Assembly: GCA_012103455.1 (NCBI GenBank)
Contig: WLWT01000001.1
Coordinates: 2,795,288 to 2,859,287, forward strand
Reading direction: 5' to 3'
From: Gammaproteobacteria bacterium
Lineage (GTDB): Bacteria > Pseudomonadota > Gammaproteobacteria > HK1
DNA: 64,000 bases
Numbering within the stretch: position 1 is the stretch's first letter; every line of letters begins with the position of its first letter. Below, piece by piece: positions 11,201-63,691 of this stretch. Position numbers and translations under genes: made by a program. Under the pieces are notes generated by a model. It was given only the letters and a program-made list of their open reading frames with translations, was not told where the DNA came from and searched no databases.

Positions 11201-14200
11201 TTACCGGCGGCATCGGACTGATGGAGGGTGATGTTGCCGTTGGCGTCCTTGACCTTCATGGCTTGGGCAAAGGCGTTGAAATGGCTGTATTCGGTGGTCG
11301 CGCCGGAGGGAGCGGTGATGCGCGTGACGTTGCCGTTGGCGTCGTAGTCGTAGCGGGTGGTCAAGCCGGCGGCATCGGTGCGGGCGATTTCATGGAACGG
11401 GGCGAGTGGGTCGTACGTATGTGCCATGCGCCCGCCGTTCTCATCGATGGTGAGGGTGGGGCTGCCGTTCTCATTGAAGAAATAACGCTTGACGAAGCCG
11501 CGCTCATTGGTGGTGGTGGCCTCGCGGCGATAGTCGTTGTCAGTGAAGGTCAGGGTGCCGCCCCGATCATCGGTGTGGCGCAACACCCGTCCATTGCTGT
11601 AGTACTCGAAGGTCATGCCGTTGCCGTTGGGCTTTTGGGAACGGCGCAGGGCGTGATTGAGATTCACCCCGTCGGCGAGGCCGTAGTACTCGTACGTCAG
11701 GCCCGGTTGCTGGCCGCTGGCCGCGAGCGGGTTATCGACGCGCTCCAACTCGCCGTCGGCGTTGTAGTGGTAGCGCCACTCGCGCCCCGTCGAGGGGTAG
11801 GTCCAGTCACGCAGGTGGGTCAGGCGATGGGCCGAGTCGTACAACAAGGTGATGACCCGGTCGAGGTCATCGGTGACGGTGTCCAGGGTACCGGCTGGGC
11901 CGTAGTCGAAGCGAAGGCCGTTGCCATTGCGGTCTTCGAGGCGCAGCACGCGGGCTGTTTGGCCGACCGTGCCGGGGACATTCTCGAAGAAATAGCTGAA
12001 GCCGTTTTTCTCCCGAATGCGATAGCGCCCATCGGGCTCGCGGCTGGCGGCGAAATAAAAGCCCTGCGGTGGGGTGAACGCGGCGCCGATGGCGACACCG
12101 CCGGCGGCGCCAGCGACGGGGATGAAGCGCTGTCCGCCATCACCGGTGGTCCAGGTGACCGATGAGGTCAGGGTGTCCTCGTCAGAACCTTCCACATCGG
12201 CATCGCCATCGCTGTCCTCGAAGGTCAGGAAGTGATTGAAACTGTGCGTCCAGCCGTAACCGAGGGGCGCCGTTGAGGCGTTGGGATGGGCGGCGGCCAG
12301 ACTGTTGTAGGTGCGTTGAAAGGAGATAGGCAGCCCGCCGCGGCCCATGACCCGCAAGTCCTGCTCGATATCGAACAGGTTGCCGGTGGCCATGTTCACC
12401 GGATCACCGCCGCGCGAGGTGCCGTGGGTGGTGCCGTAGTTGATCATCGAGTTGAGGGTGGCCGGGGCGAGCGCCGTGGGCGTGGACGCGCCAGGGGCAC
12501 CGGCGCGGCGGGCCGGCAAGCGGTAGGTGGGGGCGCTGGGCGTGCGGTTGACCGTGTAGCCACCAGCGAAGGGTCCGATTTTGTAGGTGGCGCTCAAGCG
12601 GTTACCGGACTGGCGCGTGGCCACGTAGATTTGGCCGGTCCATTCACCGTAGTCGATAAGACTGACGGGGATTTTGATGTCATGGCCACTGTTGAGCAGC
12701 CCTTGGAGGGTGTTCTTGGTCGCTTGGCTGTAGTCGAGCGCGCCCTCGCCGACCTGTAGCTTGGGCCACTCGGTCGCTTGGTTGGCGGCATTGATGTCCA
12801 GCACTTCGATGCCGCTGTCGTTGGCGAATTGCAGGCCGCGCACGGCGCTGACCGCGTCCATGCGGGCGTTTTCCTGCCACACATAGGATTCGAGCGCAGA
12901 CAAGGCATAACCACCCAAGACGAAGGCTTCAAAGGAGGTCCGGCCGGTCTCCAGATGGGTGCTGCGCGACTGGCCGCCGGGCACGTCGATGAGGAAACCG
13001 CTGTTGGTGACGGCGTAGGGCAAGTCGAACAGATAGCTCACCTCCGTGCGGCTGGCGGTCAAGCCAATGTGCAGTCCGCTTTGGCCGGACTCGCCGTACA
13101 AGCGCCCGACCCGGTGGTACGCATCGGCGATGTAGTGCAGATACTTGAGGCCCACCAGATGCAAAAACTCCCCTAGCGTCGCCTCCTTGTCCTCGGCTGG
13201 GTCGGGGGTGTTGTTGATCCCTTCGAGCAGCCGGGCGGCGCGCGCCTGAATCAAACGCTCGGAGGTCTGATGGCTGTAGAGGTGCAGGGCGTGATAATCG
13301 AAGGCCGAGAGCGTGTCGAAGCGGGTGGCGTTGAGGGTGGCGCCCCCGAGTTGTACCTCGAGCGATAGGGTGCGTTTGGGCAAGCGATCGACCCGCACCA
13401 CATTGGGGTCGAGGGTGGTGCCGCCGTACCACTCGTTGAGCGCGAAGTAACAGGTGGGCGCGGAGGTCGGGTCGAGGTTGACGGCGGCCCCGTCCACTTT
13501 GAGCACCGGAGTGTGATCCCGGACGCACTGAACGGCCCCGTTGCGCTGGATATAAAGCGCACTACCAGGGCCGTAGCGCGCCTCCAGTTGGCGCAGGTAG
13601 GCGCGGCGCTCGGCGTCCAGCGAGCCGCCGGTGCCGGGTTGGAAGGCGAGGGTGAGCCGTTTGAGGGCGATGGCCGGTACATCCAACACGGCATGGCCCA
13701 AGGTGGCGTTGCTTTGGGCGTTGCCCACGTCGATGGACAGCGTATAGCGGTGTTTGGCGGGCAGGGCCGCGGTCTCGGCGGTGGCGGTGCCATCCCAGGC
13801 CAGGTATTGCCTGACCTCATAGGGCAAGGTGGCGGGCAAGATATCGAGGGTGAGCGGCTCGGTGCGCCCGGTATAGGGCACATCGGCCAAGGTGTTGTTG
13901 CCGTAGCGCGGCGCCAGGGTTCGGATATGGGCTTGGACCTGCGCCTCGAACTGTTCGTGGGGCAACAAAAGAGTGCGCGTGCTCAGATAGCTGGCATAGT
14001 CGAACGATACATCGATGGCGATGCCGTCTTGATAGGCGCGGTTCTTGAAAGCGGTATCGATGGGCACCCAGCGGTGGCCGCGGTTATTGGCGCCGGAGCC
14101 CCGATAGTTCCGGTACGGGATACACGCCTCGACCCACACCTGGGTGAAGAAGACGTTATCTCCGGAGCGGCTCGTCGGGATTTGACCCGAAGCCAACAGA

Positions 14201-19400: not shown

Positions 19401-22400
19401 CTGTTGTGCAGATGATTGCTGATCAGAGCAACGAGGAGGGGGAATCGGTCTCGGTGCCGGTGCTGGCGACGGATGCCGATCCAGGCGATATTTTGACCTA
19501 CGGTCTGGCGAGCGGTCACCTGCTACCACAAGGCGTGAACATCGATCCGGTCACGGGTGTCATGTCCGGGGTGATCGCGGCGGCCAGCGCGGGCTCCTAC
19601 ACGCCGGTGGTGACGGTTTCCGATGGCATTTTCACCCTGTCCGAGACATTTGGCTGGTTGGTGGATGCCGCCGATGGCTTGGTGGTGACGGATATCGCCG
19701 ATGTAACCATGGACGAAGGCGATTCGGTTGACGTTGCCGTCACTGCAAGTGGCGTCGCTGTGTCGCTTTGCATCGTACCGGGCAGTCCATTGCCGCCGTT
19801 CGTCACCTTGGCCGACAACGGTGATGGTACGGGGAGTATCCATATCGCGCCTACTCATGCGGATGCGGGTTCGTATACCGTTGCCGTCACGGTTGGCGCT
19901 TCGCAATCATTGTGTACCAGGCCGCCGGAGGCGCAGCTATTTGCCCCGGTGAGGAAGACGTTTACGGTGGACGTGGCAGATGTTAATCAGCCACCCGCGG
20001 TCATGTTGCCTGGCGCCCAGTCCCATCGCGCGGGGGCGACGGTCAATCTTCCTATCCCGGCCTCCGATCCGGAAGGCGGGACGTTGCGATTCGCTGCGGT
20101 TGATTTGCCAGCCGGGCTGACCATAGACGCCGCCAGCGGCACCATCAGTGGCGCCATCGCGCTGGACGCGCGGGGCGACTACAGCGTAGCCCTCTCAATT
20201 TTGGATGTGCTCGACAACCGGGTTCATGGCTACACGCTGCAATGGACGGTTACCGCCAACAACATCGCGCCGACGGCCATCGACGATGCGGTGAGTACCG
20301 ATGAGGATGTCGCCCTCACGTTTGACGTGCGCGTCAACGATACCGATGCGAACGGTGATGTGTTGGCAATCGATAGCCATACGGCCGTGGCGAACGGTAC
20401 TCTTGTTCTCAATGCCGACGGCACATTCAGCTACACGCCCAATGCGCAGTTCAGCGGCTCGGAGTCCTTTGATTATGTGATCACCGATGGCGCCAGCTCT
20501 GACACCGGGACGGTGACCATCACTGTGGAGGCGGTGAATGATCCACCGTCGGTCACGAATCCGGTGCTTGTGAGCAGTGCCGAGAACGATACCGTCAACT
20601 TGACGCTGGTGGCGAGTGACGAAGAAGGACAGGCCCTCACGTACTCAGCATCGGGTCTACCGGGCGGACTTTCCATGAACGCGGACACTGGTGCTGTGAC
20701 CGGCGTGTTGGGCTACACGACGGCCGGTAGTTATACCGTCGCAGCCAATGTGGCCGACGCGGGCGGCGCGTCTACCGAGGTGGTTTTCACTTGGGTGGTG
20801 CGCGACATCAACCAAGCACCCGTGGCGGCGGCCGACTCGGTTTCCACGCCGGAGGATACACCGGCAAGTATTGCGGTGCTTGCGAACGACGTTGAGCCCG
20901 ATGGACAGGCACTAGCTGTCACCGCGGTGACGCAACCGTCCGATGGGACGGCGATCATCAATGCGGACAACACCGTTACCTATACCCCCAACCAGAATTT
21001 CTTCGGCGCGGATACATTTCACTACACCGTGAGTGACGGCTTGCTCGGTATCAATGTAGCGGCTGTAAGCGTTACCGTTACGGCGCAAAACGATGCGCCG
21101 GTCGCGGTCGCTGATAGCGTGACCGTAGATGAGGGTACATGGGCCGTCGTTGATCTCGCCGCCAATGATATTGACGTCGAGAACGCGCTGGACCTTGCGA
21201 GTATCGCCATCACCGTTGGCGCTAACCACGGCACGCTGGTCAACGACGGCGACGGTACAGTGGGGTACCGACACGATGGTAGCGAAACCACGGGTGACAG
21301 TTTCACGTACACGATTGCAGATACTTCAGGTGCATCTTCGAACCCGGTCAGTGTGACCATCACCGTTACGCCGGTGAACGACGCGCCCATTGCGGCGGCT
21401 GATGCGGGAGCGGTGGCCGAAGGCGCCACGCAGAACATTGATATCGCGGGCAATGACACCGACGCGGAAAACGCGCTGGATCCGAACAGTGTGACAATTG
21501 TCAGCGCGCCCATGAATGGATCGGTTCGGATCTTCGCCGACGGTACGGTTGACTACACGCACGATAGTAGTGAAACCCTGGCTGATCGCTTTCAGTACAC
21601 CATCGCCGACACGAGCGGTACGCCTTCTAACGTGGCAAGTGTTGCCATCACGGTATCCGCAGTCAATGACGCCCCGGTTGCATCGGACGACAGCACGGTT
21701 GTCGCGGAAGGGGCAAGTCTTTCCATCGACGTAGTTGGTAACGATGCCGATGCCGATGATGGCCTGGACTTGACGAGCGTGGTGATAGTTGCAGGCGCCA
21801 CCAATGGCACACTCGTGGTCAATTCGAACGGCACGGTGGTTTATGAGCACGATGGCTCGGAAACGCTTTCAGATAGTTTCAGCTACACCGTTGCCGATGT
21901 CGGTGGGGCGGTATCCAACGTTGCTATCGTCGCTATCACTGTTGCTCCGACCAACGATAATCCCGTGGCTGTTGGAGAAACAGTCGCCGTTGACGAAGGC
22001 GGTGCGGTAACAATCAATGTGGTTGTAAACGATACCGACAGCGACGATGCTTTGAATCCGAGCAGTGTCTCAGTGGTGTCAGGTACGACTAATGGCGTAC
22101 TGATCAACCATGCCGATGGCACGCTGACCTATACCCATGATGGCAGTGAGACCACCGCCGATAGCTTCAGCTACACGATTGCTGATACTACCGGCGCGGT
22201 ATCCAACGCCGCCACGGTCACTATCTCCGTGACGCCGCAAAATGATGCGCCAGTGGCCACAGCTGACAGCCAGACAGTTGCCGAAGCCGGCGCAGTCGTT
22301 ATTGATGTGGCGGGCAACGATTCCGATCCGGACGATGGCATCGTTGCCTCGAGTGTGGTGGTGGTTGCTGGAGCGACCAACGGCAGCTTGACCAACAATC

Positions 22401-25400
22401 TCGATGGAACTGTCACGTATACCCATGACGGTAGCGAGACCACCTCGGACAGCTTTACGTACACCATCACCGATGGCAGTGGCGCCGTATCGAATGTGGC
22501 AACGGTCAGCATCGCTGTAACGCCGCACAACGATGCGCCCGTGGCCGTTGCCGATAGTGGTTTGGTGAATGAAGGTGCGGCGCAGACGATTAATCTCATC
22601 GCCAACGATACGGATGCGGATGACGGCATCGATCCGTCCAGTCTCGTGGTGGTGGTGGCACCTGCACACGGTTCGCTGAGCCTGCTGGGCGATGGCACGG
22701 TGAGTTACACTCACGACGGCAGTGAGACCACAACCGATAGCTTCAGCTACCGTGTGTCTGACTTCGCCGGCGCCCCGTCTAATACGGTGACGGCCAATAT
22801 CTCGATTACCCCCATTAACGATATACCGATTGCCGCTGCCGACACCGGCTCAGTGGTCGAAGGCTACAGCGTCATTCTCAACCTGGCGGCGAACGATACG
22901 GACGCGGACGATGGCATCGATCCGGCGAGCATTGTAGTGACGGCGCCGGTCAGCAACGGCTCGCTTATCGTCAATGGCGACGGTACGGTCAGCTATACCC
23001 ATAATGGCGGTGAAACCACGTCGGACGGCTTCAGCTACACCATCGCGGATGCCAGTGGCGCGTTGTCGAACGTGGCGGCCGTGACTATTACGGTGACGGC
23101 GCAAAATGATGCGCCGGTGGCTGCCGGTGACAGTGCGGTCCTCAATGAGGGTGCGAGCACAACCATCAACCTTGTTGCCAACGATACTGACGCCGATGAT
23201 GGTGTTGACCCATCCAGCATCGCCATCATCTCCGGTGTCGCGAACGGCAATGTGGTCATCAATGCCAATGGCACCGTTGACTATGCCCATGATGGGGGTG
23301 AAACGACCAGTGATAGCTTCACTTACACCATCAGTGATGTTGCGGGCGCCGTATCGAATGCGGCGCCGGTCAGCATCACGGTCACGCCGGTTAATGATGC
23401 ACCGGTGGCGGTGGCCGATGCGGCACGCACGGTAGGCGGGATCGAAGTCGTTGTGCCGGTGTTGGCCAACGACGTGGATGCAGATGGAGATCCGCTGCAA
23501 GTGAGCGCGGTGACACCGGCGTCACATGGAGTGATACGCCATGATGGCATGCGCATTCATTACACGCCGGAAGTTGATTTCGCAGGTGTCGAGCGGGTGG
23601 ACTATACGGTGGTTGATGGTCAAGGCGGGAGCCACGGCGCGGCGCTGACGATTACGGTTGAGGCGCCCGGAGTGACGGCGCCGCCGCGTCTGGTGGAGCC
23701 CCCTAATGAAACGGAGGTGGCGACACTGGCGCCACCACTGGTGGTCGCGCACGAGATTCATGATCCACGCCTGGAAGTGGGGTATGAATTCGAGCTCTAT
23801 GAGGATCCGCAGATGCAGGTGTTGGTGCGTCGCGCGACGGTGACGGCCGGCGCACAGACGCTTACGGCGTGGCCGGTATTCCCGCCGTTGGATGCGGATA
23901 ACCAGTGGTACGACTGGCGCGCACGTGGGTTTAACGCGGGTGGGCACAGTGTATGGGTATATGGTGATTTTTTTGTCAACACGGAAAATGACGCCCCGGG
24001 TCCTTTGCCATTGAGTGCGCCGGGGATCGGCGTGGAAGTCGATAGCCTAAGGCCGACCTTGGAGGTGGTTAACAGCGTGGATGTGGATCAGGGCACGGCA
24101 CCGCTGACCTATGTATTCGCAGTCTATGAAAACGACCCCGGCATCAGCCCGGAAGTCTGGCCATTGGTTGAGTCTTCGGCGCTGGCGGCGGGCGACGAAG
24201 GGGTTACGGCGTGGCGTGTTGAAGTGGCGTTGCGGGAGAACCGGGAATACCACTGGCAGGTGACGGTGAGTGACGAGCACGGTGCGCGAACGCGCAGCGA
24301 CGTGGGGCGCTTCTTTGTGAATACGGCGAACGAGGCGCCGCGGTCGCCGGCGGTGGCCGCACCACTGGTGGACGAGGAAGTGCCGACGCAGGCGGTGCGC
24401 TTGCAGGTGCACAATGCGGTGGATGCAGATCGCGACACGCTGCATTACACCTTTGAGCTGGATCGGGGCGAGACCTTTGACAGTGCATTCCAACAGCGCT
24501 CCGAACGGCTGCCCGCGGGTGTGGGGACGACGAGTTGGGACGTTGAGGGGTTAGCCGACAACACCTGGTATGTATGGCGAGTGAAAGCCGATGACGGCGT
24601 CGCGGAGAGTGGTTGGACCAATGGCCGGTTTTTCGTGAACACCCAAAACGACGCGCCCTCGATACCGACGGTGCGTAATCCGGGGAACGGAGCATGGGTT
24701 GGGACGCGCAGGCCGGCGTTGGCCGTTAACGCGAGTACGGACGAGGACGAAGATGCGCTGGACTATGAGTTCGAACTCTACGCCTACAGTCACCGCTCGC
24801 AGGAACTCGCCAGCGCTGTTGAGGTTGAGCCGAGGCGTGGATTGACCAGTCGGACGCCACGGATGTTGTTGGATGACCACCGCTGGTATGCGTGGCGAGC
24901 GCGAGCCGTGGATGAGCATGGAGCGGCGAGTGCGCCGATGGAATGGCAGTGGTTCTTTGTCAATGACAATGGAGTGGATGATGCGCCGGAGTTGGAATGG
25001 GTGCTGCCCTACACGGATATAGAGATACCGACGGAGGACGGCCAGGTTTGGCTGCGCTGGCAGGTTCGGCTGCGCTGGGAAGATAGCGATCCGGACAGCA
25101 ATGCGCGGGTGTCGTTGTATTACGAGCGCGCTGACGTAGATGGACCCGTCGGGACCTTGATTGCCGCGGATATAGAGGAAGACCTGGATGATTGGGGCGA
25201 TGAGTATCCGTGGGAGGTGTCGGGATTGTACCCGGGACATTATCGAGTGTATGCACATATACGCGATGCGCGCAATGAAGTGCGGGTGTATGCACCTGGT
25301 GTGGTCACAGTGATGGCCCTGGTGCTACCAGGGGACTTAAACGGAGATGGGATGACGGATCTCGCGGATTTATACTATATAGCGTCGAGTTATGAGGCCT

Positions 25401-25507: not shown

Positions 25508-26367
25508 GCGGATGTGGGTATGAAGGCGGGGTGCAAGATGACAGACACAGCAACGAACTCGGTTCGCATTGATTTCGATACGCGCCAACCCACGATGCGA
25601 CGGGCAAACCCATCGATAACGAAGGCGACGTAGACGAACCCTGAGCGGGTTGCGACACAGGTGAAATCGGACCCCCACCACTCGTTTGGACGGCTCGCAC
25701 TGAAGTCCCGGTGGCCGTGGTCTTCGCGGTGGGGGTCCTCCGCCGGGGTTGGGGTGGGTACGCGGGCCCCACGTCTCCCCCCAGTAGTCCCAAGAAACGC
25801 ACGCGCCACGCGGTGGCCTTCACGTTTGAGTGGATGGCATACCTTGCCAACGCCGTAGACCGCATGGTTGTGTGTCCACACCCGCTGCACTTCGGTGGCT
25901 AGCCGTGCGCCGCGTTGAGTCCGCTGTAGAAATGCCTTGGCCTTGAGGGTCGCCCTCACGGGCTTTGTGTTCGTAGTACGTCGATGGGGCAATGGAGCCA
26001 AGTGTTTGCCCATGGGCTCGACCCGGTCAGTACTCCGGTATTGGCCGATAAACGACACTCACGCTTCAGTGGGTGGTCGAGTGCCGCCTGGGCGAAAAAA
26101 GCCGGCGCCTTGGGTAGAATGTCATTGGCCTTGCGTCGCTCTAGATGCTCCCGTTCAAGTGCCTTGAGTCGGCGTTTGTATTGGTCCTCGGCACGCGGTG
26201 CCCGCAACACCCAAGCGCGCGGTGTTTCTGCTGAGCACCCTAATCTTGTCCGCTATCGAACCGATTGTCGTCCACTGAGAGGCATCGTCATCACGATGTG
26301 CCGCAACCCTGCGCACCGCACGCTCTCGAACTTCGGACGACTAGCATTTTTGTTGGGGTTTGTTCAT
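25504..26367 (-). pseudogene. IS3-family element remnant (degenerate orfA C-terminus plus truncated orfB)
   Basis: orfB motif RPNEWWGSDFTCVATRSGFVYVAFVIDGFARRIVGWRVS and orfA tail LEREHLERRKANDILPKAPAFFAQAALDHPLK. IS3-like terminus TGAACAAACCCC at ~26343-26367. Heavily mutated and 3'-truncated at the adhesin stop. Confidence 0.6.
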
Positions 26368-35572: not shown

Positions 35573-37657
35573 TCACTCATGCGCCGTGGCCGCCTGAGCG
35601 CTAGGCCGCTCACCCGCCGGCAAGATGAGAATGCTGCCGTAGGGGTCCACGTGGCCGGTGTGATGAGGATGAATGAGTGTGGTCGAATCCGTCTGCGTAA
35701 TGATGGCCGGGCCATGCACCTGATGCCCGGCCCGTAGTTTTAGCCGGTCATAAACGGCGGCGGGCTGGAACGAGCTAGCGAAATAGACCTGCTCGTGGCC
35801 GACCCAGGCGGCGCCCGCATCGGCATCGATCGGCACCAGGCGCGGGAGCGCCATCTTGCGCACCTGCCCGGCGCCCACGGCCCGCAGATTCACCAACTCC
35901 ACCGGTGTACCCAACTTGAAACCGTACAGACGCTCGTGGGCGGCGCCAAAACGCGTGGCCAGCTCATCCAGCGCTGCCTTGTCAAAACCGCTGGAGCGTA
36001 CCTCTAGTGCCACTTCATAACCCTGGCGAAAATAACGCACGTCCGCTTCATAACGAATGCTTTGATCGCCGCTGGCGATGCCTTCTTCGCTGAGCCAACC
36101 GGCGGCTTCAGTGCCCAAGCGTTTTAACACAGCGCTGATGTCGGCGGGAGCCACCGTTTCCAAGTGGCGGATGAATGTTTGGGCGAATTCGTTTTTGGCA
36201 TCGGAATACAAAAAACCGAGGGCGGACAGCACGCCAGGGGTGGGCGGAATGATCACGGGATAACAGCCCGCCAGCATGGCGATAGCATTACCGTGCAATG
36301 GACCTGCGCCGCCGAAAGCCACTAGGGCGAAGTCGCGTGGATCCAAGCCTTTTTGCACTGTCACCAAGCGTAACGCACCCAGCATGTTCTCGTTGACTAT
36401 ATCCACAATGCCCTGCGCCGCCTGCTGTGTGCCTAGGCCTAGGCAGGTGGCGATGCGGTTAACAGCGCTTTCGGCGGCGGCCACCTCCAATGCCATAGCA
36501 CCATCGAGCAAGCGCGGCGGCAAGCGTCCTAGCACCACATTGGCGTCGGTCACGGTGGGTTCCTCGCCGCCGTGACCGTAACAGGCTGGCCCTGGCCGTG
36601 CCCCGGCGCTGTGCGGACCTACCCGCAAGGCACCGGTCATGGGCACATGGGCGATGGAGCCGCCGCCGGCACCTACGCTGTGCACCTCCACCGACGGGAT
36701 CTTGATGGGGTAGTAACCGAGAGCGGTTTGTCTCGAGATGGTAGGCAGGCCGTTTCGAATGAGCGAGACATCCGTGGAGGTGCCGCCCATGTCGAAGCCT
36801 AGCGCATTGGGGTGACCGGCGAGCCCGGCGATGAAAGCGGCGCCCGATACCCCGCCCGCCGGCCCCGAGAGCATCGTGTGCACGGGCCGATCCGCCGCCC
36901 GTTTGACGCTCATGAGGCCGCCATCGGAGCGTACGATATTGACCGTGGGTTGGACTTGCAATTCGCCTAACTTGGTCTCGAAATTGGCCAGGTAGTTGCG
37001 CATGGCGGGGCGCACGTAGGCGTTCATCACCGTCACCAAGGTGCGTTCGTACTCGCGAAATTCGGGCAGGATTTCCGATGACACGGACACTGGCATGTCC
37101 GGCGCCAAAGCGTTGACGATGGCTTTAAGTCGCTGCTCGTGGGCTGCGTTGGCGTAGGCGTTGAGCAACGAGATGGTGATGGATTCGACTTGCGCATCCA
37201 GTAGCGTCTGTACCGCCCCCTGGGCTTGGCTTTCGTCCAGCGGCGTTAACACCTCTCCGCGGGCGCTCATCCGCTCCTCGACGCCTTGGGTGTGTTGCAG
37301 ATCGGCCAACGGAGCGGGTTTTTGCATGATCATCCAGCCGGCCAGCGGCCCGGGTGTTTGTGATCGGGCCAGATGTAAAATCTGTTCGAAGTCTTGCGTC
37401 ACCAGCAAACCGACCCGTGCGCCTTTCTCCTCCAGCACGATGTTGGTGGAAACGGTGGTGCCGTGGAGCAGGGCGCGTATATCGGCTGGCCGCATCTGCG
37501 CCCGTTCCAACAGGCCACGTATGCCTTCGAGAATGCCCACGGATTGATCATGGGGGGTGGAGGGGGTTTTGTGCAGATGCAGCGCGCCGCTTGACTCGTC
37601 GAACAAAAGCAGATCGGTAAATGTGCCTCCAACGTCAATACCCAACCGGCAACTCAT
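35573..37657 (-). CDS. hyuA: hydantoinase A / N-methylhydantoinase / oxoprolinase (HyuA) family protein
   Basis: N-terminus MSCRLGIDVGGTFTDLLLFDE...HGTTVSTNIVLEEKGARVGLLVT is typical of hydantoinase_A. Confidence 0.8.
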   Translation of the reverse strand: MSCRLGIDVGGTFTDLLLFDESSGALHLHKTPSTPHDQSVGILEGIRGLLERAQMRPADIRALLHGTTVSTNIVLEEKGARVGLLVTQDFEQILHLARSQTPGPLAGWMIMQKPAPLADLQHTQGVEERMSARGEVLTPLDESQAQGAVQTLLDAQVESITISLLNAYANAAHEQRLKAIVNALAPDMPVSVSSEILPEFREYERTLVTVMNAYVRPAMRNYLANFETKLGELQVQPTVNIVRSDGGLMSVKRAADRPVHTMLSGPAGGVSGAAFIAGLAGHPNALGFDMGGTSTDVSLIRNGLPTISRQTALGYYPIKIPSVEVHSVGAGGGSIAHVPMTGALRVGPHSAGARPGPACYGHGGEEPTVTDANVVLGRLPPRLLDGAMALEVAAAESAVNRIATCLGLGTQQAAQGIVDIVNENMLGALRLVTVQKGLDPRDFALVAFGGAGPLHGNAIAMLAGCYPVIIPPTPGVLSALGFLYSDAKNEFAQTFIRHLETVAPADISAVLKRLGTEAAGWLSEEGIASGDQSIRYEADVRYFRQGYEVALEVRSSGFDKAALDELATRFGAAHERLYGFKLGTPVELVNLRAVGAGQVRKMALPRLVPIDADAGAAWVGHEQVYFASSFQPAAVYDRLKLRAGHQVHGPAIITQTDSTTLIHPHHTGHVDPYGSILILPAGERPSAQAATAHE

Positions 37658-37798
37658 GGTATTCGCCTGCTCTCCCCACACGCGCAGTGCGCACTGTAAC
37701 CAAACTTCGGCCCGCGCACATCACCGGCTTCCCTTTGCGCCTATATAACCGAGGCACTCGGCACCCTTGGAATTACCTAGGGCGAACTCGGTGAACAC

Positions 37799-38105: not shown

Positions 38106-38392
38106 ATCATCCAGCCGGCCAGCGGCCCGGGGGTTTGTGAGTCGGGCCAGATGTAAAATTTGTTGGAAGTCTTGCGTCACCAGCAAACCGGCCCGTGCGC
38201 CTTATTTCCTCCAGCACGATGTTGGTGGAGACGGTGGTGCCGTGGAGCAGGGCGCATATATCGGCTGGCCGCATCTGCGCCCGTTCCAACAGGCCACGTA
38301 TACCTTCGAGAATGCCTACGGATTGTTCATGGAGAGTGGAGGGGGGTTTGTGCAGATGCAGCGCGCCGCTTAACTCGTCGAATAAAAGCAGA
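38106..38392 (-). pseudogene. duplicated hyuA 5' fragment (copy B, about 90% identical to 37336-37622)
   Basis: Direct nucleotide alignment to the intact hyuA 5' region. Encodes ERAQMRPADICALLHGTTVSTNIVLEE. Confidence 0.6.
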
Positions 38393-38766
38393 AACGACCT
38401 GGAAACACATTAATACATGCTCCATCCGGCTTCAGTATTCTTTTTATTTCTCGAAGTGCTGAAGAATAGTCCATGATTATGCTCAAAGACCTGGCTACTG
38501 AATACGATGTTAAAAGTTTTATCCTCATAAGGAATTTTAGTAAGGGTCATCTTCTATTTTCTGTGTAATACCATCATTCATATAAGATGTTAAATTCGCA
38601 TTGGGACTGTCCGGAAGCGCAATGTCGCAACCAAAGAATTGATATCCAGCTTGCCGGAACTGGTGTACACAGATACCTTCACCACAACCAAAAGCAAGTA
38701 GTATGGTATCTTCAGATACAGTTAGACTTGTATTACTCAGTAAGGTTTTCAGTCATGCAACATACT

Positions 38767-39059
38767 GGAGGGCACCTCTAAAAATGCACTTTTTCCGCGA
38801 TTGCGGCGTCAGCTCCGTGCTCGAATCCTCATGTATCACCTATCACTGCTGTCCCGTAGAGCATACCAACCCTTTGAATTTATTGGAAAAACTGTTTTCA
38901 TGTCTCAAACACAATGCATAGTTAATTTTTTATGGAAATCAATAGGTTATACGCTGTGTTTAACCATTTTGTGGGACAGCAGTGATCACCTATACACTGC
39001 GGTTCCGCGCGCGGTGCTTCCTTGCACTCACGAAACAATGACTATTTTTAGAGGTGCCC
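38767..39059. mobile_element. MITE-like element (family A, TIR GGGCACCTCTAAAAATGCAC...) carrying a nested second MITE-like element (38844..38984, TIR CACTGCTGTCCC) flanked by a 9-bp duplication ATCACCTAT
   Basis: Left half 38767-38843 and right half 38994-39059 are collinear with the uninterrupted copy at 44857-44999. The nested insert has perfect 12-bp inverted ends and duplicated target atcacctat (38835-38843 and 38985-38993). Confidence 0.55.
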
Positions 39060-39070
39060 TTCAATCGTTT

Positions 39071-39749
39071 TCAGCTAGGGGAATCTAATAAGTGACGTCG
39101 CTTGAAGAGGTATTCGGTGTTCGCTTCGCCCGTTTTCATCGTCACCATTGTTAGATTGAGCTTCTCCGCCCAGTCTTTGACGTCAGCTCGTTTCGCAAAT
39201 TCCATGGGCCAACCACCTAACCAATCCACAATATCGGTGAAAAAAGCCATCCCTCTAGATCGTTTATAGCCAACAATCTTAGATTGTTTATAGCCGACAA
39301 CCTCAGATCGTTTATAGCCAGCAATTCGTTGGATAAGATCAGGGATTTTCTGCCAATTTTTGTAGAGGACAAATTCCAAAATATACCAGCCCACCATATA
39401 TTTTTTGGCAAGCCAACCGGAACGGTTATAGCGCTGTTTGACCTCCAACCAAAATTCAGCTGGGGGGTTGACTTGGATATCATAGTCGTACAGAGCAATG
39501 TACAAAATCGTCTCATCCTTCATCAGCCGGGCTGTATTATCCATCGCCTGCCACATTGCGCCAGTGTGATGCAGCACTCCCCAACAATACACCACATCTG
39601 CGGGTTCCAGCGTCCTGAAAAATTGCTCATCGAGAATTGAACCTTGCAGTACGGTCCAATGAGAAGGATTACCCGAGTACGCCTTGAGCATATTTGTTGT
39701 TTTGACCGAGTTAGAGTCTAAGTCGAAGCTCACAATCTTGGCTGCACCC
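39071..39749 (-). pseudogene. class I SAM-dependent methyltransferase, C-terminal part (gene split by the IS5-family insertion)
   Basis: ...VVYCWGVLHHT motif. Contains a 21-nt coding tandem repeat (x3) at ~39250-39315 encoding GYKRSEVVGYKQSKIVGYKRS. Confidence 0.55.
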
Positions 39750-40650
39750 GCTCTTAGAACCTGTTCAAGATCTGACGATTTTGGACATCTGACCTAAGCT
39801 ATTGTTATCCATAGTCATAGCGGCTGCGAAGGCAATGACAGACGAGCGAATCTACCCGAGTGACCTATCTCGCCAACAGTTCGAGAAAGTTAGACCGATC
39901 CTGGAGGCGGCGCGTCGGCGAACCAAGCCAAGGCAACTCGATCTCTATCACGTGTTCAACGCAGTGTTGTACCTGCTGAAGACCGGCTGCCAATGGCGCA
40001 TGTTGCCCAACGAGTATCCAAAGTGGCGAAGTGTGCATGAGTATTTCACTATCTGGCGGCAATCGTCCCCAGAAGACTCTTGCAGCGCCTTGGACAAGGC
40101 GTTAAAAAAATGGGTTGGCGAGGCCCGCAAATCCCAGGGGCGCAGTGGCAAAACCAGCCTGATCATCGTTGATGCACAGAGCGTGAAGAACACAGACAGT
40201 GCAAACCACAAAGGTTATGACGCAGGCAAGAAGACTTCTGGTATCAAGCGGCACATAGCTGTGGACACTCAGGGATTGGTGCACGCTGCTTTTGTGACCA
40301 CGGCAAATGTCACTGATCGAGCTGGGGCACTGGCCGCACTTGCTGCTCAAGCAGATGGGCGCCTCTCGGAGGTTAGGTGTGTAGTGGGCGATGGCGGGTA
40401 CACGGGGATGGCTTTCGCTGGCGAAGTGCTGAGATTAATCGGAGCGAACGTCGAAATTATCAAACGCTCGGACACGGGTCGTTTTGCCGTCCTCCCGAAG
40501 AGGTGGGTTGTCGAGCGAACCTTCTCATGGTTTGAGAAAAACCGCCGGTTGTGGAAAAACTGTGAGCGGCTAATCGAAAGCTCGTTGGGCATGATGCTAC
40601 TTGCAAATATTGCGCTGTTGCTTCGGAGATCTTGAACAGGCTCTAAGAGC
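39750..40650. mobile_element. IS5-family insertion sequence (~0.9 kb) with 24-bp imperfect terminal inverted repeats GCTCTTAGA(A/G)CCTGTTCAAGATCT
   Basis: IRs at 39750-39773 and 40627-40650. A single transposase ORF lies inside. It interrupts a methyltransferase gene whose halves are collinear across it. Confidence 0.75.
39835..40635 (+). CDS. IS5-family DDE transposase
   Basis: ...LPKRWVVERTFSWFEKNRRLWKNCERL is a typical IS5/IS427-group C-terminal motif. The listed ORF starts at 39802 (MLSIVIAAAKA, 11 extra codons); 39835 (MTDERIYPSDL) is chosen as the more likely start. Confidence 0.75.
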   Translation: MTDERIYPSDLSRQQFEKVRPILEAARRRTKPRQLDLYHVFNAVLYLLKTGCQWRMLPNEYPKWRSVHEYFTIWRQSSPEDSCSALDKALKKWVGEARKSQGRSGKTSLIIVDAQSVKNTDSANHKGYDAGKKTSGIKRHIAVDTQGLVHAAFVTTANVTDRAGALAALAAQADGRLSEVRCVVGDGGYTGMAFAGEVLRLIGANVEIIKRSDTGRFAVLPKRWVVERTFSWFEKNRRLWKNCERLIESSLGMMLLANIALLLRRS

Positions 40651-40845
40651 TGCCAAGGAATGCAGTCCACTACCGCAACCAATATCAAGAAAGTACTTGC
40701 CTTGCAGGTCATCCATGACTAGGAACTCAAGTAAATGCTGTTGAGCGATAGCTAATCGCTCTTCACTAAAGTACCGCTTGAGGTAGTGTGCCCAATTTTT
40801 CCCAAAGCCAAAACGCATTTCTTCAGACATAGGAGTGCTTTTCAC
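40651..40845 (-). pseudogene. same methyltransferase, N-terminal part (SAM motif I DIGCGSGLHSLAALRA)
   Basis: Frame continues to the C-terminal part as ...LAALRA|GAAKIVSFDLD when the IS is removed. Confidence 0.55.
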
Positions 40846-42408: not shown

Positions 42409-42543
42409 ATTGGCAGTGCGCCCCGAGAGGGCCGTTATATTGGATGCGCTTTTGCGTCTGCGGCGGCGAGCCGAGGATGGACCGGCTTAGCGAAGACCCC
42501 ACCTCTGGTACACTCGTGCGCCTATCGGTGTTGGGTGGAGGCG

Positions 42544-43215
42544 ATGAAGCTCTACGATGCGAAGCAGGCTCCGAATCCGGGACGGGTGCGTATCTTTTGG
42601 GCTGAAAAAAGCGTTGAGATTCCCACGGAGCAAGTCGGTCTACTCGGCATGGAAAATCGTAAGGGGCCGTTCCTAGTGAAAAATCCGTTGGCCGGTGTGC
42701 CGCTGCTAGAACTAGATGACGGTGCATATATCGCTGCAACCGTTGCCATCTGCCGCTATTTCGAGGCACTGCATCCAATGCCTTGTCTGCTGGGGGACGG
42801 CGCTTTTGCGCAGGCCAATATCGAGATGTGGAATCGCCGCGCGGAGCTGGCCTTGATGCTACCGGTGGCGGCCAGATTGGGGGGGGGGACCTCTAACAAC
42901 CGTAGCGAGCGGCCTTAGGGCAAGGCGCACGGAGCGCAGGAACCGCAGTGTATGGGTAATACAATGAGGATTGCGAGCACCGCGCAACGCAGCCATAGCG
43001 TCGCGCAGTAGGTTTTAGAGGTCCCCGTGGCGTGGTTTGAGAAAGAAATGGAGGGACGCGAGTATGTTGCGGGCAATACATTTTCTATCGCCGACATCAC
43101 CGCTGTTGGCGCGATCGATTTCGCCCGGGCCGTGAGTATTGGCCTAGGGGAGGCGCATCCGTGCCTTCGCGCTTGGCACGGGCGGGTGGCGGCGAGATCA
43201 TCCTACGATGCCTGA
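42544..43215 (+). pseudogene. glutathione S-transferase gene disrupted by a MITE insertion
   Basis: N-terminal thioredoxin-like part (MKLYDAKQAPNPGRVRIFWAEKSVEIP...) runs into the MITE (..AARLGGGTSNNRSERP*). The GST C-terminal domain resumes at 43027 (AWFEKEMEGREYVAGNTFSIADITAVGAIDFA). Confidence 0.65.
42881..43026. mobile_element. MITE-like element, family A copy (TIR GGGGACCTCTAA...), inserted in GST; abuts a G10 run (42879-42888)
   Basis: Core aaggcgcacggagcgcaggaaccgcagtgtatgggtaatacaatgaggattgcgagcaccgcgc aligns with the copies at 44857 and 38767. Terminal inverted repeats present. Confidence 0.55.
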
Positions 43216-44656: not shown

Positions 44657-44856
44657 CACCCGTGGAGCGTGGGCGCTAATACCCGCGCTGCTCAAGGTCC
44701 AGCGCTTGGCCTTTGCGAACCATCTGCAACCGGTTCAGAGAAGAATTGCCGGGCAGGATTTCGACCGGGAAGTTGCCATTGATGACGGCAGCTTTGACGT
44801 GGTTAGGCGGGTAGGGATATGGCCGCGAGCAGCGCGGTAACTGGCGTTATGGCCAA

Positions 44857-44999
44857 GGGGCGCCTGCTAAAAATAGTCATTTTTTCGTGAGTGCAAGGAA
44901 GCACCGCGCGCAGAACCGCAGTGTATAGGCGATACATGAGGATTGGAGCACGGCGCTGACGCCGCAATCGCGGAAAAGTGCATTTTTAGCGGGTGCCCC
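44857..44999. mobile_element. MITE-like element, family A, uninterrupted reference copy (~143 bp, ~30-bp imperfect TIRs)
   Basis: Left end ggggcgcctgctaaaaatagtcattttttcg, right end cgcggaaaagtgcatttttagcgggtgcccc (inverted). Intergenic between pduO-like and the cyclase gene. Confidence 0.55.
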
Positions 45000-45185
45000 A
45001 AGGCGATGAGCACCGCTTTGATGGCCTTGAAGAAACCGCTTAGGAGTAAGTCAACTTGAAAGAGTGCCAAGTGCATCCCATGTGGTGCGAATGCCTCGAC
45101 ACCGGACTACATTCTGGTCTTTTCTTCACGTTTAACGTCCCCCCTGTTCAACTCAGTTAGTCCATGCTCGACTAGGCTATTCGTT

Positions 45186-61897: not shown

Positions 61898-62000
61898 TTT
61901 GATACCTCGCTTTGAATAAGTGTTCTGTTATCTATATTGTTACCTCATCGTTAATACACAGAACAGAATATAAAACTAAACGGTCGCTGTGCGTTTAACC

Positions 62001-62072
62001 GCCTAACGCCGCCAGCAGGGGCAGACAAAACGCGTAGCGGTTTGGCTGTCCCTCTGGCTGGCCTTGTTAAGC
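62001..62072 (-). other. attC site 1 (72 bp; GCTTAAC ... GTTAGGC in cassette orientation)
   Basis: Begins 3 nt after the stop (62076) of the cassette ORF. Conserved central acgcgtagcgg element is shared with the other attC sites. Confidence 0.6.
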
Positions 62073-62075
62073 GCG

Positions 62076-62477
62076 CTATTGCTTCGAACGCTCATACGCC
62101 GCATAGCTTCTCAGTAGCTCTAGCCGCTCGACAACCTGTCCAGTAGTGGCGCCGTGTAGCTTCATTTTTGCCACCACCATCATGTATTTCCATGGCACGT
62201 AAGTATTGGCTGGATCACGATATAGATCGCTCATTACTTGGCTAATTGTTTGCGCATCACTCATTGGGATCGCATTTTCGTAGGACCCCGCGTTCTTTAT
62301 TTGCAGTTCTTCAAACAATAGCTCTTGGCCTTTGCTAGCACCCCAAACCCAGTAAACCTGACTATCAGTACTTACGCGAGACCAACTTTTCCCCGGATTG
62401 TATTCTTGGTCAGCAGACACAGATGACCATACGAACATGATCAATATCACGACGGGGATCGATTTTCTTCTCGTCAT
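62076..62477 (-). CDS. integron cassette ORF: small secreted protein of unknown function
   Basis: Signal peptide MTRRKSIPVVILIMFVWSSVSA. 133 aa. 5'UTR ~22 nt from the cassette boundary. Confidence 0.55.
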   Translation of the reverse strand: MTRRKSIPVVILIMFVWSSVSADQEYNPGKSWSRVSTDSQVYWVWGASKGQELLFEELQIKNAGSYENAIPMSDAQTISQVMSDLYRDPANTYVPWKYMMVVAKMKLHGATTGQVVERLELLRSYAAYERSKQ

Positions 62478-62498
62478 ACTTGGATTCTCGTTTTTAGC

Positions 62499-62570
62499 GC
62501 TTAACGGACAAGCTCAGCCGCGGCCAGAACGCGTAGCGGGCTGGCCGTCGGCTGGAGCGACTTGTTAGAT
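62499..62570 (-). other. attC site 2 (72 bp; ATCTAAC ... GTTAAGC in cassette orientation)
   Basis: Begins 1 nt after the toxin ORF stop (62572). Imperfect palindrome ggacaagctcagccgcggccag / ctggccgtcggctggagcgacttgt. Confidence 0.6.
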
Positions 62571-62571
62571 T

Positions 62572-62865
62572 TCACTTTCTGCGAGTCCTCCAGTATCCGG
62601 GCTCCCGGCTGAAATGAGCTACTGCAATTATGACTATTTCGTCTGGAGACGGTTCGTAGATAACGCCGTACCGGAACCCTCGAACTCTACAGCGCCGGAT
62701 GCCACCACCCATGTGGTGCCAGGCATCTGGGAATGCCTTGATGCGATCAATGGCCGCCCGAACTTCATCACGCAACCGATCGCCGGTGCCAGGTGCCTCA
62801 GAATTCAGTCTCTCAACCGCGTCCCGTAGTTCAGACCGGGCAGGACCAAGAAAGCGAACCTTCAA
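62572..62865 (-). CDS. integron cassette ORF: ParE/RelE-family toxin
   Basis: MKVRFLGPARSELRDAVERL...FRYGVIYEPSPDEIVIIAVAHFSREP is the plasmid-stabilisation ParE pattern. 4-nt overlap with the upstream antitoxin. Confidence 0.7.
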   Translation of the reverse strand: MKVRFLGPARSELRDAVERLNSEAPGTGDRLRDEVRAAIDRIKAFPDAWHHMGGGIRRCRVRGFRYGVIYEPSPDEIVIIAVAHFSREPGYWRTRRK

Positions 62866-63086
62866 TCACTTTTGCCCAGTTCCGCAAAGACCTCGTCGAC
62901 ATCGTAAGCTTCAAGCTCACCGCGACGATAGGCAGCAAGGCGATCTTCTGCCTCCTTGAGCCACTGGGCTTCGATTTTAGGATCCGGCTTTCCCAAACTT
63001 TCAAGCAATTCGTCCACTAGAACTGCCCGCTCACCGGCGGAGAGTTCTAGCGCATCACGAAGCAGAGATTCAGAAGACACGGCCAT
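62862..63086 (-). CDS. integron cassette ORF: addiction-module antitoxin (TIGR02574-like)
   Basis: ...LSAGERAVLVDELLESLGKPDPKIEAQWLKEAEDRLAAYRRGELEAYDVDEVFAEL. Confidence 0.7.
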   Translation of the reverse strand: MAVSSESLLRDALELSAGERAVLVDELLESLGKPDPKIEAQWLKEAEDRLAAYRRGELEAYDVDEVFAELGKSD

Positions 63087-63139
63087 GTTGCCACCTCGCA
63101 GCGTTGCTTAGTCCCAGCATAGCGATACCGAGCGGTGAA

Positions 63140-63211
63140 ATCTAACGGCTACATTCAATTGCGGGTGAACCGCGTAGCGGTGAAGCCGTCAATTGCAATG
63201 ATTTGTTAGCG
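63140..63211 (-). other. attC site 3 (72 bp; CGCTAAC ... GTTAGAT in cassette orientation)
   Basis: Same architecture and central gaaccgcgtagcgg element as the other attC sites. Confidence 0.55.
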
Positions 63212-63462
63212 CAGATGACGGTAGCCACACCAGGTGGTGCTGCACGTGATGAGGTGCGAACGGGGCCAATGATAATTGGACGTCGAACCCGCCGACGATG
63301 CACACCGAAGCCGTCTTCTAGGCCGTATTGGGTTCGACTCGAAGTCGGCCACCTACGCAATGCGTTACTACGCTTCCGGGGCAAGATCCATGCTCCTCGC
63401 TTTGTCGTCATCCCTCCGTGAGTGTGCATGCTCAAGTCCCTTGCCTTTGACCCGCTTGAAGG

Positions 63463-63690
63463 CGCTAACAGTATGTTACACAGGCCGCTGGCCTCTGTAA
63501 CATTATTATAGGGCGGCCCTATAATTTTCTGCAACCGCCAAGGCTACTCCCGTAACTAATTGAAATATAAAAAAATTTACCTACTTCGGACAATCAGCGA
63601 AAAACTATAGGGAATTGTTCCCTATAATTCTGTTGTATTTTTGCAACAACAAGCGTATCCTGCCCCCAACTTTCTTGAAAAGGATTTCGA
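63463..63690. promoter_or_regulatory. putative attI recombination site / Pc-P(int) region
   Basis: AT-rich region between intI start and first cassette. Candidate core cgctaac (63463-63469, i.e. GTTAGCG on the cassette strand) next to the inverted repeat atgttacacaggcc/ggcctctgtaacat. Direct repeats (c)cctataatt at ~63517 and ~63623. Confidence 0.3.
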
Positions 63691-63691
63691 G

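What the first reader, a model, noticed from the sequence alone, without database searches (positions are those of the whole stretch)
38767..39059. Nested MITEs: a 141-bp element with perfect 12-bp TIRs and a 9-bp target duplication inserted inside a family-A MITE
Comparing with the uninterrupted copy (44857-44999), the family-A element here is split after ...catgtatcacctat by an insert. The insert begins CACTGCTGTCCC and ends GGGACAGCAGTG, and atcacctat is repeated on both sides (38835-38843 and 38985-38993). Clean TIRs plus a target-site duplication indicate a transposase-mobilised non-autonomous element. Which IS family mobilises it is unknown, as no second copy is in the window.
Basis: seen in the sequence. 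Interest (0 to 1): 0.55.

Follow-up and report, generated by a model that had tools for sequence, protein, structure and literature searches.

The report
IS4 MITE nested inside IS5 MITE
A 141-bp transposase-less mobile element of the IS4 family sits in the exact centre of a second, very abundant 140-bp mobile element (probably IS5-derived) in a sponge-symbiont genome. This is ordinary transposon biology, with the small twist that the same landing spot is hit repeatedly.

Summary
The insert 38844-38984 has perfect 12-bp ends and a perfect 9-bp target duplication (ATCACCTAT). Removing it restores a gap-free family-A unit.

The insert belongs to a widespread MITE family:
- 27 copies with the same ends in 17 genome assemblies, almost all gamma- and betaproteobacteria, and more than 60 distinct copies once the metagenome copies are added.
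- 31 of 64 distinct copies have a perfect 9-bp duplication.

The partner element is now identified. It is a 1.27-kb IS4-family IS (DUF4372 + DDE_Tnp_1, 383 aa). Its nearest named relative is ISAbe18, which has the same 12-nt termini. The host MAG, a Mycale hentscheli sponge symbiont, encodes at least 8 intact copies of this transposase.

Family A is also a real MITE. It occurs about once per 5-10 kb, has 4-bp duplications in 9 of 14 copies, and its ends match those of an IS5-family IS.

In the host, the IS or its MITE is found at this same position of other family-A copies three more times. The site is an apical palindrome, TGT|ATCACCTAT|ACA, and it fits the family's general target preference.

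Verdict: a new member of a known kind, of modest interest.

The parts
38770..38843 (+). Left arm of the interrupted family-A MITE (end GGGCACCTCTAAAAATG...). It includes the first copy of the 9-bp target.
   Evidence: It is 92% identical to the matching arm of the copy at 44858-44998 and 100% identical to the left arm in L161/L162.
38835..38843 (.). Target-site duplication, copy 1 (ATCACCTAT). It is the centre of the family-A apical palindrome TGT|ATCACCTAT|ACA.
38844..38984 (-). 141-bp IS4-family (ISAbe18-like) MITE. The end at 38984 corresponds to the IS left end (IRL): 17 of 17 nt match the resident IS. The transposase-derived motif GAGACATGA lies on the minus strand at 38897-38905.
38844..38855 (+). 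Terminal inverted repeat CACTGCTGTCCC. This is the IRR-equivalent end: 15 of 18 nt match the resident IS end.
38973..38984 (-). Terminal inverted repeat (GGGACAGCAGTG on the + strand). This is the IRL-equivalent end.
38985..38993 (.). Target-site duplication, copy 2 (ATCACCTAT).
38985..39059 (+). Right arm of the interrupted family-A MITE (...CTATTTTTAGAGGTGCCC).
   Evidence: (I1, 96%).
44858..44998 (-). Uninterrupted family-A MITE in the opposite orientation. Its own 4-bp duplication CAAG lies at 44854-44857 and 44999-45002.
42880..43023 (-). Diverged family-A-like copy. Its ends and central core are conserved and its arms are diverged. It splits a glutathione S-transferase gene.
   Evidence: The same split is seen in L001-L004.

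Best explanation
The 141-bp insert is a non-autonomous deletion derivative (MITE) of an IS4-family insertion sequence of the ISAbe18-like clade.

Inferred mechanism:
- It has no gene of its own. Transposase made by full-length copies elsewhere in the genome would bind its conserved termini (CACTGCTGTCCC, 12-18 nt).
- The transposase would excise the element and insert it at a 9-bp staggered cut. Repair of that cut gives the ATCACCTAT duplication.
- The cut-and-paste chemistry is inferred from what is established for IS10 and IS50 of the same family. It was not tested here.

The target:
- The insertion went into the apical palindrome of a second MITE, family A. Family A is about 140 bp, has ends GGGCACCTCTAAAAAT and makes 4-bp duplications.
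- Family A is itself most likely an IS5-family derivative and is scattered about every 5-10 kb through this genome.
- The site TGT|A-N7-T|ACA fits the palindromic, AT-rich target preference of the IS4 element. This explains why the same position in other family-A copies carries the IS or the MITE.

The nest lies in a degraded intergenic stretch and probably has no cellular function.
For: Shown directly:
1. Anatomy and clean restoration of the empty site.
2. The same end pair at 130-159 bp spacing occurs in 27 loci of 17 genome assemblies, for example Nitrosomonas marina Nm71 (4 copies) and a Sedimenticola MAG (5 copies). The interiors are variable.
3. Of 64 distinct MITE copies, 31 have a 9/9 duplication and 40 have at least 8/9. 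A control shifted by 25 nt never exceeds 6/9.
4. Seven full-length elements of 1270-1277 bp are bounded by CACTGCTGTCCCGTTAAC; two more, of 1183 and 1193 bp, are truncated or frameshifted. The one read in full (L069) has a single 383-aa ORF, and L078 has a perfect 9-bp duplication.
5. That ORF is an IS4-family transposase: NF033592 at E 1e-78 and 265 bits against a cut-off of 115, with DUF4372 and DDE_Tnp_1.
6. The nearest named element, ISAbe18, is 51% identical at the protein level. It ends in CACTGCTGTCCCATAG... / ...CACAATTT-type termini and is flanked by a 9-10 bp repeat. ISAbe18 is listed as IS4 family, 1,269 bp, and is reported to transpose (PMC8552602).
7. Same organism: in L161 a 1432-bp IS with these ends splits another family-A copy at the same ATCACCTAT. 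Its own gene is split by a 142-bp MITE about 94% identical to the window's, with duplication AATTTGATC.
8. L162b carries the MITE in the opposite orientation at the same family-A position. L163 carries a fourth junction of the same kind.
9. Eight distinct intact 383-aa transposases, 95-98% identical, lie on the MAG's 4.70, 1.22 and 1.10-Mb contigs.
10. The 9-mer GAGACATGA codes for the RHE residues of the transposase N-terminus. It occurs in 22 of 64 MITEs at 77-81 nt from one end, against 0.09 occurrences expected by chance. In full-length IS it lies 147-152 nt from IRL. This supports descent of the MITEs from the IS.
11. The target logo from 33 perfect sites shows A at position 1 (0.58) and T at position 9 (0.82), with flanks T-R-T and A-Y-A.

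Family A:
- 14 distinct copies were aligned, and 9 have perfect 4-bp duplications.
- A 1242-bp IS5-family IS (NF033581, DUF772 + DDE_Tnp_1) has identical ends, 16 of 16 nt at one end.
Against: - Movement was not observed.
- Apart from the termini and two short collinear words, the window's MITE shows little sequence similarity to the resident IS. It could therefore descend from a different member of the IS clade.
- The only resident IS whose DNA I could read is defective, with a premature stop and a MITE insertion. The intact copies are known only as protein records, so their ends were not read.
- Family-A copy 1 lacks a matching 4-bp duplication of its own (TGGA against TTCA).
- The IS5-type parent of family A was seen once, in an unrelated metagenome, and not in the host.
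- The count of same-site insertions is small and partly biased by how the loci were found.
Confidence: 0.9

Rival explanations
1. The nest at this locus did not arise by transposition of the MITE into this family-A copy. It arose by homologous recombination or gene conversion with another family-A copy that already carried the insert.
For: - Recombination among copies does seem to occur. In L162a and L163 an IS or MITE has a family-A arm on one side and unrelated DNA on the other.
- At the orthologous locus, two other assemblies (L169, L170) show the MITE inverted and about 10% different inside, while the unique flanks are identical.
Against: - The window copy has a perfect 9-bp duplication.
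- Its two arms match the pattern of a single intact unit.
- Three independent assemblies are 601/601 identical to the window.
- Conversion would still require an original transposition into family A.
- The odd contigs may be short-read assembly chimeras.
Confidence: 0.07
2. The 141 bp is the in-place remnant of a full-length IS that inserted here and then lost its interior. It would not be an element that moved as a MITE.
For: - A full-length IS sits at the same position of another family-A copy (L161).
- The MITE retains a transposase-derived 9-mer.
Against: - At least four further 141-142-bp copies, 90-94% identical, lie at different loci of the same organism. Each has its own duplication or junction and both orientations occur.
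- The window's subterminal sequence differs from that of the resident IS.
Confidence: 0.02
3. The unit is not a transposon. It would be a structured RNA gene, or a REP/BIME-like palindromic repeat spread by a RAYT-type enzyme or by recombination.
For: - Both units fold better than shuffled controls, with z -3.0 for the insert and -2.7 for family A.
- The central core of family A is better conserved than its arms.
Against: - There is no Rfam match, even at E up to 1.
- No promoter-like or terminator-like sites were found.
- The fold signal of the insert comes mainly from pairing of the terminal repeats.
- Interiors vary freely between genomes while the ends are invariant.
- Regular 9-bp and 4-bp duplications are signatures of DDE transposition, which REP/RAYT elements lack.
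Confidence: 0.01

Closest known systems
ISAbe18 (IS4 family; Acinetobacter plasmids and chromosomes)
   Same: - The 12-nt terminus is the same (CACTGCTGTCCC at one end, CATTGCTGTCCC at the other).
- It makes a 9-10 bp flanking repeat and is about 1.27 kb long.
- It carries one DUF4372 + DDE_Tnp_1 transposase of about 383 aa.
   Different: - Its transposase is only about 51% identical to the marine and symbiont transposases.
- Its subterminal sequence differs.
- My searches, one plasmid BLAST and one literature search, turned up no MITE derivative of ISAbe18.
IS10/Tn10 and IS50/Tn5 (IS4 family archetypes)
   Same: They belong to the same IS family, make 9-bp target duplications and prefer symmetric targets. 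They are the source of the cut-and-paste (hairpin) mechanism assumed here, which rests on established knowledge and was not tested.
   Different: They belong to a different subgroup, with no DUF4372 N-terminal domain, and their ends (CTGA...) are different.
MITEAba12 with ISAba12 (Acinetobacter; PMC6382973)
   Same: The logic of the case is the same: a MITE of about 113 bp, ends shared with a co-resident IS, 9-bp duplications, AT-rich targets, and similarity to the IS confined mainly to the ends.
   Different: It is an unrelated element. Its ends are GGCTTTGTTGCACAAA and its partner ISAba12 is about 1.04 kb. No nesting in another MITE is reported for it.
IS that target palindromic repeats (IS1397 and ISKpn1 into REP/BIME loops). 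This comparison comes from my own knowledge and was not checked here.
   Same: There is repeated insertion at one defined position in the apex of an abundant intergenic palindromic repeat.
   Different: Those elements belong to the IS3 family and their targets are REP units. Here an IS4-family element targets an IS5-derived MITE, and the preference can be explained by its general target consensus.
IS5-family MITEs (the IS5 group makes 4-bp duplications)
   Same: Family A has 4-bp duplications, and its ends are identical to those of a DUF772 + DDE_Tnp_1 IS5-family element.
   Different: The duplicated 4-mers (TTGA, TGAA, TAAA, GTTA, CGTA, TCTA, CAAG) are not the YTAR target that I recall for IS5 itself. 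The parent element was not found in the host.

Membership tests
Bacterial MITE (type I, IS deletion derivative): the 141-bp insert | Small size and no transposase gene | tested here: met
   The insert is 141 bp. Only a spurious read-through frame crosses it.
Bacterial MITE (type I, IS deletion derivative): the 141-bp insert | Terminal inverted repeats | tested here: met
   The window copy has a perfect 12-bp repeat. The family consensus is 18 bp, CACTGCTGTCCCGTTAAC.
Bacterial MITE (type I, IS deletion derivative): the 141-bp insert | Target-site duplication of fixed length | tested here: met
   The window copy has a perfect 9-bp duplication. Of 64 distinct family members, 31 are perfect and 40 have at least 8 of 9. 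The shifted control never exceeds 6 of 9.
Bacterial MITE (type I, IS deletion derivative): the 141-bp insert | Multiple dispersed copies | tested here: met
   The host has at least 5 copies at distinct loci.
Bacterial MITE (type I, IS deletion derivative): the 141-bp insert | Co-resident autonomous element with the same ends and the same duplication length | tested here: met
   The resident IS in L161/L162 has the same 12-17 nt ends and a 9-bp duplication. Eight intact 383-aa transposases are encoded in the same MAG. The ends of the intact copies were not read.
Bacterial MITE (type I, IS deletion derivative): the 141-bp insert | Internal sequence traceable to the parent IS | tested here: inconclusive
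   The transposase-derived 9-mer GAGACATGA sits at a fixed offset in 22 of 64 MITEs, including this one. Beyond that, only short collinear words match the resident IS, and each is weak on its own.
Bacterial MITE (type I, IS deletion derivative): the 141-bp insert | Demonstrated mobility | not testable with these tools
   The only hint is indirect: an orientation and sequence variant at the orthologous locus in two assemblies, which could be an assembly chimera.
IS4 family, ISAbe18-like clade (the partner element) | Transposase passes the curated IS4 model | tested here: met
   NF033592 scores 264.8 bits against a cut-off of 115. DDE_Tnp_1 and DUF4372 are both above the Pfam cut-offs.
IS4 family, ISAbe18-like clade (the partner element) | Ends shared with the named element | tested here: met
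   The ISAbe18 ends were read from an Acinetobacter plasmid: 12 of 12 nt match at one end and 11 of 12 at the other.
IS4 family, ISAbe18-like clade (the partner element) | Catalytic DDE and Y-(2)-R-(3)-E-(6)-K residues present | not tested
   Only profile matches were obtained. The residues were not inspected.
IS5-family MITE (family A, the host element) | Ends identical to an IS5-family IS | tested here: met
   L055 678-1919 has ends GGGCACCTCTAAAA..., matching 16 of 16 nt at one end. It matches NF033581, DUF772 and DDE_Tnp_1. This is a single example from another metagenome.
IS5-family MITE (family A, the host element) | Fixed-length duplication (4 bp) and many copies | tested here: met
   Of 14 copies, 9 have perfect 4-bp duplications and 3 more have 3 of 4. 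There are 2-4 copies per 6-20 kb of host DNA, and 13 clusters of spurious ORFs were found.
IS5-family MITE (family A, the host element) | Autonomous partner resident in the host | not tested
   No scans of the genome or metagenome collections were left. The IS5-family IS in the window (39750-40650) has different ends.
REP/BIME-type palindromic repeat (considered for family A) | No target duplication; spread by a RAYT enzyme | tested here: not met
   Regular 4-bp duplications are present.
Any Rfam RNA family (considered for both units) | Match to a covariance model | tested here: not met
   There is no match at gathering threshold over the whole window, and none at E up to 1 over 38600-39200.

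The most novel reading that the evidence does not exclude
The ISAbe18-like IS and its MITE have a real, strong preference for one 9-bp site in the apex of the IS5-derived family-A repeat. The abundant older MITE would then act as a harmless 'landing pad', comparable to the REP-targeting IS. The end-like word next to the site may help target capture: it reads CACTGCGGTTCC in most copies and CACTGCTGTCCT in one copy, against the element end CACTGCTGTCCC. Orientation and sequence variants at the same locus in different sponge specimens would then be recent, repeated hits.
Probability: 0.3. Interest if true: 0.45.

Novelty: new member of a known kind. Interest (0 to 1): 0.3.

Why it matters
- It names the enzyme family behind a MITE that is widespread in marine gamma- and betaproteobacteria. 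As far as my limited literature check went, this MITE has not been described.
- It gives annotators a simple signature: CACTGCTGTCCC ends plus a 9-bp duplication.
- It identifies the dominant intergenic repeat of a sponge symbiont as a probable IS5-derived MITE, which helps to explain why short-read assemblies of this organism break up.
- The repeated use of one site in another MITE is a tidy natural example of target preference in an IS4-family element, and it could be tested in vitro.
- It does not point to a new kind of system.

Tried and rejected
- BLAST of the insert and of family A against the plasmid collection found no match.
- A 41-nt end probe hit only enterobacterial REP-like hairpins through its CCCTCTCCC stem.
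- A scan of viral contigs for the 18-mer end found nothing.
- A literature search for the 12-mer returned only unrelated primers.
- The 1-mismatch hit at 61556 lies inside an ORF and has no partner end, so I treat it as chance.
- The IS5-family IS next door (39750-40650) was considered as the partner of either MITE and rejected because its ends differ.
- Family A's ends resemble the Tn21-type Tn3-family repeats that I recalled from memory. I dropped that idea because the duplications are 4 bp, not 5, and the inner part of the Tn3-type repeat is absent.
- MITEAba12 was checked and is unrelated.
- Look-ups of the intact resident transposase genes and of the neighbouring methyltransferase fragment were not on record.
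- An apparent extra end in L031 is a decayed MITE, not an IS.

Full report
**The observation.**
- Positions 38844-38984 (141 bp) begin CACTGCTGTCCC and end GGGACAGCAGTG.
- ATCACCTAT flanks the insert on both sides, at 38835-38843 and 38985-38993. The repeat cannot be extended, so it is exactly 9 bp.
- The exact 12-mer occurs nowhere else in the window.
- The family-A unit proper runs 38770-39059. The intact copy is 44858-44998. A third, diverged copy at about 42880-43023 splits a GST gene.

**The insert is a member of a large MITE family.**
- A scan of one genome per species for the two ends at 105-135 nt spacing gave 27 loci in 17 assemblies. The assemblies include Nitrosomonas marina Nm71 (4 copies), a Sedimenticola MAG (5), Sulfuriflexus, Thioalkalivibrio, Ectothiorhodospiraceae, Burkholderiales, Reinekea and others.
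- Thirteen of these loci have perfect 9-bp flanking repeats and six more match at 8 of 9.
- The ends are invariant and extend to an 18-nt consensus, CACTGCTGTCCCGTTAAC. The interiors differ between genomes.
- Over all the data, 31 of 64 distinct MITE-sized copies (129-282 bp) have perfect duplications and 40 have at least 8 of 9. A control shifted by 25 nt never exceeds 6 of 9.
- The window copy is most like the Nitrosomonas marina and Burkholderiales copies, at about 70% identity.

**The partner IS.**
- The metagenome loci include seven elements of 1270-1277 bp bounded by the same ends, plus two truncated or frameshifted ones of 1183 and 1193 bp. The copy read in full (L069) has one 383-aa ORF, and L078 has a perfect 9-bp duplication.
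- The protein passes NCBI's IS4 model (NF033592, 265 bits against a cut-off of 115) and carries DUF4372 and DDE_Tnp_1.
- The nearest named relative is ISAbe18 of Acinetobacter, at 51% identity.
- Reading ISAbe18's ends from a plasmid shows CACTGCTGTCCCATAG... on one side and ...TGTGGGACAGCAATG on the other, with a 9-10 bp flanking repeat.
- ISfinder-based work lists ISAbe18 as IS4 family, 1,269 bp, and reports it as an active element (PMC8552602).
- The mobilising family is therefore IS4. The cut-and-paste mechanism is inferred from IS10 and IS50.

**The host organism carries this IS.**
- Exact protein look-ups place the window on a 4,699,109-bp contig of a Gammaproteobacteria MAG from the sponge Mycale hentscheli.
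- The paper describes a 7.0-Mb MAG with an N50 of 4.7 Mb named 'Candidatus Caria hoplita' (PMC7157528). The identification of the window with that MAG is my inference.
- In contigs of the same community, a 1432-bp IS with these ends splits another family-A copy at the same ATCACCTAT (L161). Its transposase gene is itself split by a 142-bp MITE about 94% identical to the window's, with duplication AATTTGATC.
- With the nested MITE removed, that IS is 1281 bp long and has one premature stop, so this copy is dead.
- A protein search finds eight distinct intact 383-aa versions, 95-98% identical, on the MAG's three large contigs. I could not fetch their DNA.

**Descent of the MITE from the IS.**
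- The window's right end matches the resident IS left end over 17 nt. Its left end matches the IS right end at 15 of 18 nt.
- The 9-mer GAGACATGA, which encodes the RHE residues of the N-terminal PRHEFE motif, occurs in 22 of 64 MITEs at 77-81 nt from one end. This includes the window copy (minus strand, 38897-38905). Only 0.09 occurrences are expected by chance.
- In full-length IS the same 9-mer lies 147-152 nt from IRL.
- This supports a deletion origin. Otherwise similarity to the resident IS is confined to the ends.

**Family A.**
- It is very abundant in the host, with 2-4 copies per 6-20 kb fetched and 13 clusters of spurious ORFs.
- An alignment of 14 distinct copies fixes the ends at GGGCACC...GGYGCCC. 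It shows perfect 4-bp duplications in 9 copies and 3 of 4 matches in three more. The interrupted copy in the window is one of those without a match.
- By chance, one metagenome locus (L055) holds a 1242-bp element with the same ends. It encodes an IS5-family transposase that is frameshifted (NF033581, DUF772 + DDE_Tnp_1).
- Family A is therefore most likely an IS5-family MITE.
- The IS5-family IS inside the window (39750-40650) has different ends and is unrelated.

**The recurrent target.**
- Besides the window, the same position of family A carries the full IS in L161a, the MITE in the opposite orientation in L162b (duplication ATGATCTAT / ATGACCTAT), and the MITE again in L163.
- The 9-mer is the centre of the apical palindrome TGTAT-CAC-CTATACA.
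- The logo from 33 perfect sites shows A at position 1, T at position 9 and flanks T-R-T and A-Y-A. This matches the family-A apex.
- Next to the site, family A reads CACTGCGGTTCC, which is 9 of 12 identical to the IS end. One intact copy reads CACTGCTGTCCT, 11 of 12. Whether this matters is open.

**Rival explanations.**
- There is no Rfam match and there are no promoter-like or terminator-like sites.
- The fold signal of the insert is mostly pairing of the terminal repeats.
- In-place decay of a full IS is contradicted by the dispersed copies of equal length.
- Recombination or conversion between nested copies cannot be excluded as the route to this particular locus. Some contigs show chimeric flanks.
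- Two re-assemblies of other specimens show the MITE inverted and about 10% different at the orthologous site, with identical unique flanks. Three other assemblies match the window 601/601. The variant may be real polymorphism or a short-read assembly chimera.

**Verdict.** The nested-MITE reading is correct, and the partner transposase families are now identified: IS4 for the insert and probably IS5 for the host element. This is a new member of a known kind. The repeated use of one site is the only mildly unusual aspect.

Noticed in passing
window 61990-64000: A chromosomal integron. Three attC-like sites (about 61994-62075, 62497-62570 and 63140-63212, ending GTTAAGC, GTTAGAT and GTTAGCG) separate small minus-strand ORFs. 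An integron-integrase-like ORF starts at 63692 (+) and runs off the window (Phage_int_SAM_4, E 2.8e-30).
   Followed up: partly
window 39750-40650: A 901-bp IS5-family IS (DUF4096 + DDE_Tnp_1) with 24-nt ends GCTCTTAGAACCTGTTCAAGATCT. It splits a methyltransferase gene (39071-39733 and 40597-40845). It is unrelated to either MITE. Short-read contigs of the region break here.
   Followed up: yes
window 42535-43215: A glutathione S-transferase gene is split by the diverged family-A-like copy (42880-43023). The GST_C match resumes at profile position 37. The same split is present in four other assemblies.
   Followed up: partly
L169 735-1051 and L170 735-1050 (orthologous to window 38760-39070): The unique flanks are the same and the MITE sits at the same site, but it is inverted and about 10% different inside. 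The right duplication reads ATGACCTAT. This is either strain polymorphism or an assembly chimera.
   Followed up: partly
L158 about 6880-6920 (family-A copy L158a): The target 9-mer is present twice, separated by 4 nt (ATGACCTAT-ACAT-ATGACCTAT). This is a 13-bp tandem duplication exactly at the IS4 target. It could be an excision footprint or replication slippage.
   Followed up: no
L155 3110-3131 (intact family-A copy): Next to the target 9-mer this copy reads CACTGCTGTCCT, 11 of 12 identical to the IS4 end, where other copies read CACTGCGGTTCC. Both differences point toward the IS end.
   Followed up: no
L162 1201-2632 and L163 2945-3085: An IS and a MITE each have a family-A left arm on one side and unrelated DNA on the other. 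This suggests rearrangement by recombination between element copies, or chimeric contigs.
   Followed up: no
window 37364-37613 and 38142-38392: The 5' end of the hydantoinase A gene (35573-37681, minus strand) is duplicated at 95% identity just upstream of the nested MITEs. This marks the region as degraded and rearranged.
   Followed up: no
window 25985-26103 (minus strand): An ALIL pseudoknot (Rfam RF01497, 54.5 bits), the frameshift signal of IS3-family elements. An IS3-type IS therefore lies here.
   Followed up: no
window 21200-23421 and 1363-3137 / 7830-11776: There are seven 288-bp tandem coding repeats, apparently a repeat-domain surface protein. Large duplicated blocks at 94-100% identity look like Rhs/YD-type genes.
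   Followed up: no
L026 4006-4164: One MITE copy with a perfect 9-bp duplication lies on a contig binned as a Halobacteria archaeon MAG. All other hosts are Proteobacteria, so this is possibly a mis-binned contig.
   Followed up: no
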